IMG/VR virus record: IMGVR_UViG_2703718843_000004 | DNA from: a virus | Taxonomy: Duplodnaviria; Heunggongvirae; Uroviricota; Caudoviricetes | Strand: one strand, 5' to 3' | DNA: 28,160 nucleotides | Shown: one piece after another, positions 24,001 through 28,160 of the stretch | How the letters are laid out: every line of letters begins with the position of its first letter | Numbering within the stretch: position 1 is the stretch's first letter | Made by a program: the position numbers

Positions 24001-27000
24001 TCCTGTTATTTTTTTAAGCTTAGCACGACTTCTTCCTATTACATTAAGGACTGATTACTCAACACGGGATGTTCAGTACATCAATGAAAATTCTGATGAA
24101 ATCAGAATGATGAGTAACCAACTCTTACTAAAAAACAATGGAAGCTCAGTAACAGCAACAAAAGGTACTATCGATTCAATGGTTGTCCATGGTGACAATT
24201 ATGATCACCAATCAGTATCTGTTGGTGAAGATAATGTTGGACAATTAATCCAGGCAATTTTTTCATTTAAAAGACTGAAGGAAACTTATTCTGATTATCA
24301 TGGCGGAATATTGTTAATTGATGAAGCCGATGCAGGTCTTTTCCCTGCGGCACAGTTAGAGCTAATTAATATTCTAACTAAAGCAGCAAAACAATACGAT
24401 CTGCAAATAATCATGACCTCGCACTCTCCATTAATAATAGAGGATATCTATAATCGTTCAAAACAAGATAGTGATAGCTTTAAAACAATATATCTTACAG
24501 ACACATATGGAGATATTAAAACAAAGAATAATCTTTCATGGACAGATATCCACGCTGATTTACATGTTGAAACTGTAAAAATTAATGATGACATTTGTCT
24601 TCCAAAGGCAAATGTATATTTTGAAGACAAAGAAGGTTTCGACTTTTTCAAACAATTGATAACAGATCGAAAAATAAATAAAATATTAAATCCATTAGGG
24701 AATATAAATATTAGCTGCTCTGCCATGCTTGACTTAATGGCAAGAAAAATACCAGAATTTACAGCTAAAAGCTTGATCGTCTTAGACGGTGATGTTGTTC
24801 ACGACAACAGTGCTAATGCAAAAAAAGCCAAAAAAGAAAAAAACTTATGTTTGCTTCCAAGCACCTTACCTCCAGACCAAATGATTTTTGAGTTTTTATA
24901 TAATTTACCACCTGATGATGCATATTGGGAAAATAAAAATAAATTTACAAAAGCTGTTTTTATGAAAACAGCTAAAGACATAATTGCAACGCTAAAGATT
25001 GGTAACGCTCCGATTGATTTAAAAATCCTTATAGATAATTATAAAAAAGTTAACAAAAACCATGGAGGGAGAGTTAGAAAACTGTTTAAAGATTTTGCAC
25101 ATACGACTCAATTTCAGGCCCAAGTCAAAGGAAGAGTTAAAGATAACCCATATCGATATTGGGTCGAGAAAAATCCTGTTCAATCGGATAGCTTCAAGAA
25201 TGAACTAATAAAGAGTCTTAAAGTTATTATGATAAGTGGACATGGTGTCGATTCTGCTACCATCTCATCATATCTGTCAGATAACTAATTGATTAAAAAG
25301 GGTTTTATGTGATGGCCATAAAGCCCTTTTTTTGATATACTTTAGATCTGACATTTAGAGGTATCATATGCGTTTTAACACCCCACTTCGCTATCCTGGC
25401 GGTAAAGGCAAGCTTGCAAATTTCATGCTTCGGATTATTGAAGAAAATAATCTTTCGCCTATACATTATGCCGAACCATATGCTGGGGGTGCTGGTTTAG
25501 CATTGAAACTGTTACATCTAAATGCAGCTGAAAAAATCATCCTTAATGATATTAATATTTCTGTTTATGCTTTTTGGCACAGTGTATTAAATCATGCAGA
25601 TCAATTATGTTCTTTAATTGAAAGAACAGAAGTTACAATGGATGAATGGTTTAGGCAGAAAGATATAATTAATAATCCTAAAGACCATGATCTTTTAACA
25701 ATTGGTTTCTCAACCTTTTTTCTCAATAGAACAAATCGTTCTGGAATATTAAAAGGTGGAGTAATTGGCGGTAAAAATCAAGAAGGGAAATGGAAGCTTG
25801 ACGCTCGCTATAATAAGAGTGATTTGATTTCTCGAATCCATAAAATATCAGAAAATCGTCACAGAATAGATTTATATAACATGGATGCAATTGATTTCAT
25901 TAAAAAAATAGTTATTCAATTGCCACAAAACTCATTAACATATTTGGATCCACCTTATTACATAAAAGGTAAAGGTTTATATATCAACCATTATGATCAT
26001 GATGATCATGTTAGGGTTGCAAAAGTCGTACAGAATAATATTAAAACACCTTGGATTGTTTCTTACGATAACACTCCTGAGATCCAAGCTATGTATAAGA
26101 CATCATCATTAGTATATGGAATAAACTACAGTGCTCAAGATCGGTACAAAGGATCTGAGGTAATGTTCTTCAGTGAACGATTGAAAATCTTTAAAACAGA
26201 TGATCCAACTAAGGTAAAAGCGCCTGTATTTAAAAGAGGATGTGTTGACGACCACATCCAGACATAAAAGGAGCCGCAAAAGATCCGCAGAATAAAATGG
26301 TTAGTATTAATCGTTTTATTTCAGCTAATTATAAAAATACGGACTCGGGTTCAACTCCCGCCAGCTCCACCAATTTTTGATATATTGAAGTTCAGTGAAG
26401 TCTATCAAGCCCGCATGGAACCAGCCTTGCGGGCTTTTTTACGTCTATAGTAGTCTACCGAGAATTGCTAGAATCTACTCGTTATGGCACCCTTTTTGGG
26501 ACCCAACACAAAGGGTCCAAAACATGAGGGTCCCAAACATGGCAAAAATCGCTAAGAAGCTCACTGACACTGAAATCAAAAGCACCAAACCTGCCGAGAA
26601 AGAGGTTAACCTTTTTGACGGCGATGGTTTGCTCCTGCGAATCGCCCCCTTAGCGAAGGGAGGAAAGAAAAATTGGTATTTCAGATATGCAGTGCCTGTG
26701 ACCAAAAAGCGAACTAAGGTGAGCTTAGGAACCTATCCTCACCTTACACTTGCGAAGGCACGAGCTTTACGTGATGAGTACTTGTCGTTGCTTGCAAATG
26801 GTATAGACCCACAAGTTCATAACACCCACAAAGCCAATGCCCTTAAGGATGCAACGGAACATACATTTCAAGCAGTAGCCAAGAAGTGGCTTGATGAGAA
26901 AGTCAAAACGTCAGGCATCTCCCAGGATCATGCTAACGACATCTGGCGAAGCCTAGAGAGAAATATCTTTCCAACGTTGGGTGATACCCCCATTAAGGAG

Positions 27001-28160
27001 ATTCGCCCTAAAATGCTTAAACAGCATTTAGACCCCATAGAAAAACGAGGTGTCCTTGAAACACTTCGCCGCGTCATATCCCGCCTGAATGAAATTTTCC
27101 GCTATGCAGCAACAGAAGAACTCATAGAATTCAATCCGGCTGACAACCTGGGGCAACGGTTCAGCAAGCCAAAAAAACAGAATATGCCAGCATTACCCCC
27201 TTCCGAACTCCCCCGCTTCCTGGTTGCTCTAAACAATGCTTCTATCCGTTTAGAAACAAGGCTACTGATTGAGTGGCAACTTCTCACATGGGTTCGCCCT
27301 GGTGAAGCTGTTCGCACAAGATGGTCAGATATTGATATAGAAACCAGCATGTGGAACATCCCGGCGGAGTTTATGAAAATGAAGAAGCCTCACAAAGTTC
27401 CACTGAGCAAAGAATCTTTGCGAGTCTTGGATTCAATGAAAGCCATCAGCGGGCATAGAGAGTGGGTTTTTCCCAGTATCAAAGCTCCACTCAATCACAT
27501 GCATGAACAAACAGCTAATGCGGCTATAATCCGTATGGGCTTCGGAGGTGAGCTTGTAGCTCATGGTATGCGATCAATCGCTAGAACGGCGGCTGAGGAG
27601 TGTGGCAAGTTTAGAACTGATGTCTTAGAAGCCGCCCTTGCCCACTCGAAAAAAGATGAAATAATTGCAGCCTACAATCGTGCAGAGTATCTCACAGAAC
27701 GTGTGGTTCTCATGCAATGGTGGAGTGACTATGTTTCGTCTCAAAAATACAAAGTTATTGCCGCATAACTCTTCCATGATGGGTTAACTATCTTGATTTA
27801 TTTGAAGAATTAATGATCACACCATTAACCTATGTGGACTAAGCATAGCCATTTACAAATGGGTACCTTGAGGCCACATAACGAAAGCTGTCGGTCATAT
27901 CAGCTAAATAATTCACATCTCTTCTCGATTATCATACACCTCGAAGAACTACCAAATTCGCTCTAATCAATGATAAAACAGTTGAATTCGGTTAAAATTT
28001 GATCAATTTTATCCTCTACATTGTATTGAATCATCCATGAGGTTTTGTGCATGGCTAGCGGAAATGAAAAAAATCATAGAGTTAGGGTCGCACAGTACTT
28101 GAGGATGTCTACCGACCATCAGCAATATTCTTTACATAATCAGGTAATGACTCCAACTTA

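What the first reader, a model, noticed from the sequence alone, without database searches (positions are those of the whole stretch)
26340..27768. Prophage ends at a tmRNA 3'-end repeat followed by a second, P4-type integrase: tandem elements at ssrA
A 32-nt copy of the ssrA 3' end (T-arm, acceptor strand, CCA) lies with no tmRNA body upstream, followed by a terminator and a P4-family integrase in the arrangement recalled for ssrA-intA of CP4-57-like islands. This implies the lambdoid prophage integrated into the ssrA 3' end next to a pre-existing island, and it fixes the right prophage boundary so that the cargo module lies inside the prophage.
Basis: partly seen in the sequence, partly recalled or inferred. 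Interest (0 to 1): 0.5.

Follow-up and report, generated by a model that had tools for sequence, protein, structure and literature searches.

The report
Prophage right end at ssrA
This is the right-hand junction of a lambda-like prophage that inserted into the end of the tmRNA gene (ssrA), just upstream of an older island that has its own integrase; the arrangement is real but ordinary and already documented.

Summary
Window 26340-26372 matches the last 33 nt of E. coli ssrA (T-arm, acceptor 3' strand, ACCA) with one mismatch at 26345, and 26346-26374 is an exact 29-nt block. No tmRNA body lies upstream. A hairpin/T-run terminator (26408-26441) and an intact 409-aa P4-type integrase (26539-27768) follow.

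- Strain AH21 joins an intact ssrA to the same terminator and integrase, 99.9% identical from 26340 onward.
- Strain ETEC4088 carries a 99.8%-identical prophage with different downstream DNA. Identity to the window stops at 26374, and an intact ssrA sits 45.2 kb away at its other end.
- E. coli 042 has the full arrangement: ssrA, prophage, fragment, island integrase.
- The prophage's xis, int, ATPase, methylase and attP module is 87-93% identical in protein to Citrobacter phage phiNP. Published experiments show phiNP's attP/attB is the 25-bp ssrA 3' end.

The cargo genes therefore lie inside the prophage.

Corrections:
- The leftmost 6 nt of the repeat come from the phage.
- The terminator belongs to the island, not to the ancestral ssrA flank.
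- The island is not CP4-57: its integrase is 49% identical to IntA and its next gene differs.
- No distal repeat for the island was found in strain 042.

This is known biology of low interest.

The parts
22163..22369 (+). Prophage excisionase-like gene (68 aa); its end overlaps the start of int
   Evidence: 93% identical to the annotated xis of Citrobacter phage phiNP. It has no Pfam hit. The coordinates follow the 042 annotation.
22330..23496 (+). The prophage's own tyrosine integrase (388 aa)
   Evidence: Pfam Arm-DNA-bind_2 + Phage_int_SAM_5 + Phage_integrase. It is 93% identical to phiNP Int. It shows only a 25% local match to the downstream island integrase.
23504..25288 (+). Cargo gene 1: AAA_15/AAA_21-type ATPase (594 aa), inside the prophage
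   Evidence: Pfam. PADLOC gives PtuA/AriA/GajA-like ATPase matches at about 1e-20 and no strong specific family. It is 87% identical to the phiNP ATPase.
25368..26267 (+). Cargo gene 2: D12-class N6-adenine DNA methyltransferase (299 aa), inside the prophage
   Evidence: Pfam MethyltransfD12. PADLOC PD-Lambda-5_B at 5.8e-124 over its full length. It is 89% identical to an unannotated ORF at the same position in phiNP.
26268..26339 (+). Phage-derived arm of attR (the P arm), AT-rich
   Evidence: Identical in the attR of 042 and ETEC4088 and unrelated to the ssrA body.
26340..26374 (+). attR core: the displaced ssrA 3'-end fragment. 26340-26345 is phage-derived, including T26345. 26346-26374 is the identity block that contains the crossover.
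   Evidence: Sequence alignment of attB, attL and attR. Breakpoints of homology to AH21 and to ETEC4088. The chance expectation is 0. A sub-threshold Rfam tmRNA 3'-end hit covers it.
26408..26441 (+). Intrinsic terminator that the island supplies downstream of the ssrA end
   Evidence: It is identical in AH21, where it directly follows an intact ssrA. It differs from the corresponding K-12 (CP4-57), 042 and phage-borne terminators.
26539..27768 (+). Island integrase, P4/IntA-type tyrosine recombinase (409 aa), apparently intact
   Evidence: Pfam Arm-DNA-bind_3 + Phage_int_M + Phage_integrase. It is 49% identical to K-12 IntA over 401 aa. The region from 26340 on is 99.9% identical in DNA to AH21.
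28051..28160 (+). Start of the island's second gene, a serine recombinase, cut by the window end
   Evidence: Annotated as 'recombinase family protein' at the homologous position in 042, where it is 1557 nt long, and in AH21, where IS1 truncates it.

Best explanation
Window 26340-26374 is the attR junction of a phiNP-type lambdoid prophage that integrated by tyrosine-recombinase site-specific recombination into the 3' end of ssrA.

The phage attP carries a near-copy of the last 35 nt of ssrA and its flank (CGGACtCGGGTTCAACTCCCGCCAGCTCCACCAAT). Strand exchange took place inside the 29-nt perfect block, to the right of T26345. As a result, the ssrA at the far prophage end is rebuilt from the bacterial body plus the phage-supplied 3' end and a phage-borne terminator.

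The original 3' end was displaced to this position, where it is still attached to what lay downstream of ssrA beforehand: a genomic island with its own terminator, an IntA-like (P4-type) integrase and a serine recombinase.

The prophage's recombination module (xis 22163-22369, int 22330-23496) is separated from the core by a two-gene cargo, an ATPase and an adenine methylase. This cargo therefore lies inside the prophage and travels with it.

What is shown: the sequence anatomy, the breakpoints, the configuration in related genomes and the orthology to phiNP.

What is inferred: that this copy can still excise, that the island was there first, and that an intact ssrA lies roughly 19 kb to the left of window position 1.
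For: - The fragment is present and not due to chance, and the window has no tmRNA body.
- AH21 has an intact ssrA followed by the same terminator and integrase, and its homology to the window starts exactly at 26340 at 99.9%.
- ETEC4088 has a 99.8-100%-identical prophage, and its homology ends at 26374. There, smpB-ssrA lies at the other end and the 25-mer repeat copies are 45,219 bp apart.
- E. coli 042 has the complete architecture: smpB-ssrA, prophage, int388, ATPase, methylase, fragment, int409, serine recombinase.
- attL copies carry G and attR copies carry T at the position equivalent to 26345. This places the crossover to the right of that base.
- phiNP matches 22131-26372 at 84.7%, and its record both ends and starts with the 25-bp repeat. 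Protein identities are Int 93%, Xis 93%, ATPase 87% and MTase 89%.
- phiNP's attP/attB was shown experimentally to be the 25-bp ssrA 3' end, including in E. coli K-12 lysogens, where an intact ssrA is regenerated (PMC6456863; PMC3072379).
- Across 5426 complete E. coli genomes, 983 join an intact ssrA directly to this island flank and 21 have the phage-arm/core/island junction.
Against: - The window does not reach the left prophage end, so the intact ssrA and attL of this genome are inferred from relatives.
- No complete E. coli genome in the collection combines this exact prophage with this exact island allele. The 042-group island region is only about 95% identical.
- Nothing here shows that the prophage or the island is still mobile.
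- The order of arrival cannot be read from the junction alone.
Confidence: 0.93

Rival explanations
1. Reverse order of events. The prophage was resident first, and the IntA-type island later integrated into the 29-35-nt ssrA fragment at the prophage's attR. This would give the same final arrangement.
For: The displaced fragment keeps the whole 3' acceptor/T-arm segment. The relic att of CP4-57 in K-12 (psaA, CTCCGCCAGCCCACCAAT) suggests that IntA-type cores lie within that segment. The junction sequence would look the same under either order.
Against: The island flank is joined directly to an intact ssrA in 983 genomes, against 21 with the prophage in between. The island looks old: IS1 truncates it in AH21 and no distal repeat was found in 042. 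The prophage is 99.8-100% identical between unrelated contexts, which suggests recent spread. An incoming island would also have the intact ssrA at attL as an equal or better target.
Confidence: 0.06
2. The fragment belongs only to the island, as its own attL relic. On this reading the prophage ends elsewhere, and the ATPase and methylase genes are island or chromosomal cargo rather than prophage genes.
For: The integrase lies 2.8 kb from the core, whereas in lambda int abuts attP (own knowledge).
Against: ETEC4088 carries the same int-ATPase-methylase block ending at the same fragment without this island. phiNP has the same block running up to its att repeat. AH21 has the island without any of this block.
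Confidence: 0.01

Closest known systems
Citrobacter rodentium temperate phage phiNP (OR565852.1)
   Same: It has the same xis-int-ATPase-methylase-attP module: 84.7% DNA identity over 22131-26372 and 87-93% protein identity. It uses the same target, the 25-bp 3' end of ssrA, which is regenerated on integration. Experiments show that it lysogenises E. coli K-12 at ssrA, where CP4-57 intA lies immediately downstream. A prophage-plus-island tandem has therefore already been produced in the laboratory.
   Different: The rest of the genome is mosaic. Window 1-21900 resembles E. coli lambdoid phages such as PhiR55_1 and mEp460 instead. The identity block with ssrA is 29 nt here and 25 nt in phiNP, and the attP mismatch next to the block sits at a different T-stem base.
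CP4-57 cryptic prophage / IntA of E. coli K-12
   Same: A P4-type integrase gene lies about 165-205 nt downstream of the ssrA CCA, in the same orientation and preceded by an element-borne terminator. The two integrases are 49% identical over their full length.
   Different: The next gene here is a serine recombinase. In 042 two ParB-like genes and a type I R-M system follow it, rather than yfjH/alpA/yfjI. The intergenic and terminator sequences differ. This is a different island that uses a homologous integrase.
[quoted passage not shown]
   Same: The signature is a regenerated tDNA plus a displaced 3' fragment marking the island ends. [quoted passage not shown] Arrays of two or more islands at one tDNA are catalogued, with 125 tandems among 3919 islands (PMC4383910). 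The 2003 paper could not be read here and is cited from my own knowledge.
   Different: Islander requires each member of an array to have its own tDNA fragment. The distal fragment of the second element lies outside the window and was not found in strain 042.

Membership tests
phiNP-type ssrA-integrating temperate phage | Tyrosine integrase orthologous to phiNP Int, with the adjacent excisionase | tested here: met
   Int is 362/388 identical (93%). Xis is 63/68 identical (93%).
phiNP-type ssrA-integrating temperate phage | The att core contains the 25-bp ssrA 3' end GGTTCAACTCCCGCCAGCTCCACCA | tested here: met
   The 25-mer is present once, at 26348-26372. It is the same sequence that is published as the phiNP attP.
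phiNP-type ssrA-integrating temperate phage | An intact ssrA regenerated at the opposite prophage end, with a direct repeat of the core | not testable with these tools
   The window ends inside the head genes. The feature is met in the nearest relatives ETEC4088 and 042.
phiNP-type ssrA-integrating temperate phage | Excision to a circular form, or virion production | not testable with these tools
   This needs PCR or induction. int and xis are intact ORFs.
P4-type (IntA-like) integrase | N-terminal Arm-DNA-bind_3 (DUF4102) domain + central Phage_int_M domain + C-terminal tyrosine recombinase catalytic domain | tested here: met
   All three domains score above the Pfam cut-offs (89.1, 82.4 and 67.7 bits).
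P4-type (IntA-like) integrase | Full-length homology to IntA, with the catalytic motifs retained | tested here: met
   49% identity over 401 aa, E = 3e-137. The aligned motifs are conserved: the R in WVRPGEA, the H-x-x-R in HGMRSIAR, LAH, and the Y in AAYNR (read from the alignment).
CP4-57 island | Gene content downstream of int: yfjH, alpA, the yfjI primase-like gene and so on | tested here: not met
   The next gene is a serine recombinase (28051 onward). K-12 has yfjH/alpA/yfjI there. The element is not filed as CP4-57.
Tandem island array at a tDNA (Islander definition) | Each element has its own integrase | tested here: met
   The two integrases (22330-23496 and 26539-27768) are only distantly related.
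Tandem island array at a tDNA (Islander definition) | Each element has its own displaced tDNA fragment | tested here: inconclusive
   The prophage has its fragment at 26340-26374. The island's distal end lies beyond 28160. In 042, no exact match of 11 nt or more to the ssrA end was found in the 21.8 kb downstream, which runs through to gabD.

The most novel reading that the evidence does not exclude
The displaced ssrA fragment and the island-borne terminator (26340-26441) might be more than a scar in one of two ways. They might be transcribed as a small RNA; Salmonella IsrM aligns to exactly these two ends of the segment in the Rfam scan. Or the fragment might serve as a shared att site through which the island's IntA-type integrase and the prophage Int/Xis cross-react, so that induction of one element mobilises or destabilises the other.
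Probability: 0.04. Interest if true: 0.4.

Novelty: already known. Interest (0 to 1): 0.12.

Why it matters
The result fixes the right prophage boundary to within 29 nt (26346-26374). It shows that the ATPase/methylase pair is phage-borne cargo sitting between int and attP, which helps anyone who annotates or studies that cargo as a candidate defence module. Beyond that, it is one more example of a well-described pattern: the tmRNA gene is a heavily used integration site where successive elements stack up.

Tried and rejected
- ARAGORN and the Rfam gathering-score scan gave no tmRNA in the window. This is expected for a 33-nt fragment. Only the relaxed scan picked up the 3' end.
- I searched E. 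coli 042 for a distal ssrA repeat that would mark the island's far end, using exact substrings of 11 nt or more on both strands. None was found.
- I first read the sequence after attR in ETEC4088 as a remnant of a second, tandem copy of the phage, because it is 93.6% identical to the phage P' arm. I rejected this. The same roughly 280-nt sequence follows the CP4-57 relic att (psaA) in K-12 and runs on towards ypjA. It is therefore the native ssrA flank, and the phage P' arm is a homologue of it.
- PADLOC did not place the 594-aa ATPase in PD-Lambda-5_A, although the methylase is a strong PD-Lambda-5_B match. The cargo is therefore not filed as PD-lambda-5.
- Williams 2003 (PMC142792) is not held in the library.
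- No complete E. coli genome carries both this prophage and this island allele at 99% or more, so the source genome's left prophage end could not be read.

Full report
**Observation**

The stretch 26340-26374 reads CGGACtCGGGTTCAACTCCCGCCAGCTCCACCAAT. It was aligned with the ssrA 3' end of E. coli K-12, AH21, 042 and ETEC4088.
- 26340-26372 matches the last 33 nt of ssrA with one mismatch. T26345 replaces the G that opens the T-stem.
- 26346-26372 is a perfect 27-nt match to the T-arm, the acceptor 3' strand and ACCA.
- The 27-mer occurs once in the window even with 3 mismatches allowed, and in none of 100 shuffles.

The window contains no tmRNA body.
- ARAGORN finds no tRNA or tmRNA gene.
- Rfam tmRNA does not reach the gathering score. 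At a relaxed threshold it scores 24.7 bits against a cut-off of 47, and only the 3' end aligns with confidence.
- The DNA directly upstream encodes the C-terminus of a D12-class adenine methylase.

Two further features follow the fragment.
- A terminator hairpin with a T-run lies at 26408-26441.
- A 409-aa ORF runs from 26539 to 27768, with the start taken from the annotation of relatives. Its architecture is Arm-DNA-bind_3 / Phage_int_M / Phage_integrase, which from my own knowledge is the P4-type layout.

**What it is**

Three comparisons fix the junction.

1. E. coli AH21 has no prophage here. Its intact ssrA is followed by the same terminator and integrase. Its homology to the window is 99.9% and begins exactly at 26340.
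2. E. coli ETEC4088 has a 99.8-100%-identical prophage but no such island. Its homology to the window ends at 26374. The prophage runs 45,219 bp from repeat to repeat, with smpB and an intact ssrA at the far end.
3. E. coli 042 and about 20 other complete genomes show the whole architecture in one piece: smpB-ssrA, prophage (partly deleted in 042; 27,708 bp from repeat to repeat), int388, ATPase, methylase, ssrA fragment, int409, serine recombinase.

The 35-nt overlap between the two homology breakpoints is the att core. All attL copies have G and all attR copies have T at the position of 26345. That T therefore comes from the phage attP, and strand exchange took place to its right, inside the 29-nt identity block 26346-26374.

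**Link to a characterised phage**

The only free-phage record that carries this module is Citrobacter rodentium phage phiNP. It is 84.7% identical over 22131-26372, and the match runs to the end of the record. The record both ends and begins with the 25-bp repeat GGTTCAACTCCCGCCAGCTCCACCA.

| Protein | Identity to phiNP |
|---|---|
| Int | 93% |
| Xis | 93% |
| ATPase | 87% |
| Methylase | 89% |

Two papers report that phiNP forms infectious virions and lysogenises E. coli K-12. They also report that it integrates into this 25-bp ssrA 3' end and regenerates an intact ssrA (PMC6456863; PMC3072379). K-12 carries CP4-57 intA immediately downstream of ssrA. A phiNP-type prophage stacked next to an IntA-type island has therefore already been made experimentally.

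**Mechanism**

This is standard integration of a temperate element into a tDNA by a tyrosine integrase.
- attP carries a copy of the 3' end of the target gene.
- Recombination within the identity block rebuilds the gene at attL from the bacterial body and the phage-supplied end.
- The original end is pushed to attR.

The phage also brings a replacement terminator. The roughly 155-180 nt that follow ssrA at attL are 88-91% identical to the native chromosomal flank of ssrA. That native flank is seen after the K-12 relic att (psaA) and after attR in ETEC4088. The phage copy contains AAAGCCCGCATCTGCGGGCTTTTT.

The terminator at 26408-26441 is likewise not the ancestral ssrA terminator. It is the copy supplied by the downstream island. 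It is identical in AH21 and differs from the K-12, 042 and phage versions.

The anatomy and the orthology are shown. Present-day excision competence is inferred from the intact int and xis.

**The cargo question**

int and xis lie 2.8 kb from the core. Between them and the core sit an AAA_15/AAA_21 ATPase (23504-25288) and a Dam-like methylase (25368-26267).
- The block is contiguous with the phage arm in ETEC4088, which lacks the island.
- The block is absent from AH21, which has the island but no prophage.
- The block is conserved in phiNP.

The methylase is a full-length match to PADLOC PD-Lambda-5_B at 5.8e-124. The ATPase only resembles generic PtuA/AriA/GajA-type ATPases at about 1e-20. 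Vassallo et al. describe PD-lambda-5 as a compact prophage RM+Abi system (PMC9519451). I did not take this further.

**The second element**

The 409-aa integrase is 49% identical to CP4-57 IntA over its full length, with the catalytic motifs conserved. It occupies the same position relative to ssrA. The island is not CP4-57, however: its next gene is a serine recombinase (28051 onward). In 042, two ParB-like genes and a type I R-M system follow.

| Configuration | Complete E. coli genomes (of 5426) |
|---|---|
| This island flank joined directly to an intact ssrA | 983 |
| Phage-arm/core/island junction | 21 |

Three further observations bear on the order of arrival.
- The prophage is nearly identical across unrelated contexts.
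- IS1 truncates the island in AH21.
- No distal repeat was found for the island in 042.

Together with the genome counts, these favour late arrival of the prophage next to an older and possibly decayed island. The reverse order gives the same junction and is not strictly excluded; I put it at about 6%.

**Comparison and novelty**

The arrangement is a textbook tDNA integration signature. The tmRNA gene is reported as a highly enriched integration target, and tandem arrays at one tDNA are catalogued (PMC4383910; Williams 2003, from my own knowledge, since the paper is not held). The specific integration module is that of phiNP.

Nothing here departs from known behaviour. I rate it already known and of low interest. 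Its practical value is that it sets the prophage boundary and assigns the cargo genes.

**Limits**

- The left prophage end of this genome lies outside the window.
- No complete genome in the collection has both elements at 99% or more.
- The mobility of either element is untested.

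Noticed in passing
window 16759-16947 (-), inside ORF 16156-17307 (-): Two Rfam hits above the gathering score, C4 antisense RNA (83.6 bits) and isrK (67.9 bits), lie inside the 383-aa ORF that relatives annotate as 'Rha family phage regulatory protein'. They cover roughly aa 120-183, which overlaps the Pfam Phage_ASH match (aa 117-213). The Rha domain is aa 223-308. Either the long ORF is over-called and the real antirepressor starts downstream of the RNAs, or structured RNAs are embedded in coding sequence.
   Followed up: partly
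window 23504-26267 (+): This is a two-gene cargo between the prophage int and attR. The methylase is a full-length PADLOC PD-Lambda-5_B match (5.8e-124). The partner ATPase is not a PD-Lambda-5_A match and only resembles generic PtuA/AriA/GajA/OLD-like ATPases. About 250 C-terminal residues have no Pfam domain. It may be a variant RM+Abi-type defence pair, and it is conserved in phiNP.
   Followed up: partly
window 26363-26440 (+): There is a sub-threshold Rfam hit to Salmonella IsrM sRNA (42 bits against a cut-off of 376). Only the first 16 and the last 52 model positions align, that is, the ssrA CCA end and the island-borne terminator. Eight nucleotides stand in place of the 261-nt body. This suggests that IsrM sits at the equivalent place in Salmonella, between an ssrA fragment and a terminator. 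No IsrM is present here.
   Followed up: no
L004 (ETEC4088) and L003 (042) downstream of ssrA; L008 (K-12) 973-1250: The phage P' arm, the 155-180 nt after the core at attL, is 88-94% identical to the native chromosomal flank of ssrA that follows the CP4-57 relic att (psaA) in K-12 and attR in ETEC4088. It includes a terminator. The phage attP therefore mimics the target gene's downstream flank as well as its 3' end.
   Followed up: yes
window 26252-26283 versus the P' arm/native flank (GAGACATAAAAGGATACGCAAAGGAGCCGCGG): A 32-nt segment just upstream of the core, spanning the methylase stop codon, matches a segment about 110-145 nt downstream of the core in the P' arm at 26 of 32 positions (my count by eye). 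BLAST reports the overlapping 29-nt stretch 26260-26288 at 86% identity with E = 0.001. It could be an arm-type Int binding repeat or a coincidence.
   Followed up: no
window 1-21900: The rest of the prophage is a mosaic lambdoid genome on the minus strand: terminase, lysis, Q, replication and immunity genes. It is 97-98% identical in pieces to E. coli phages PhiR55_1, PhiR40_1 and mEp460. Homology to those phages stops at about 21882-21935, where the phiNP-type integration module begins.
   Followed up: no
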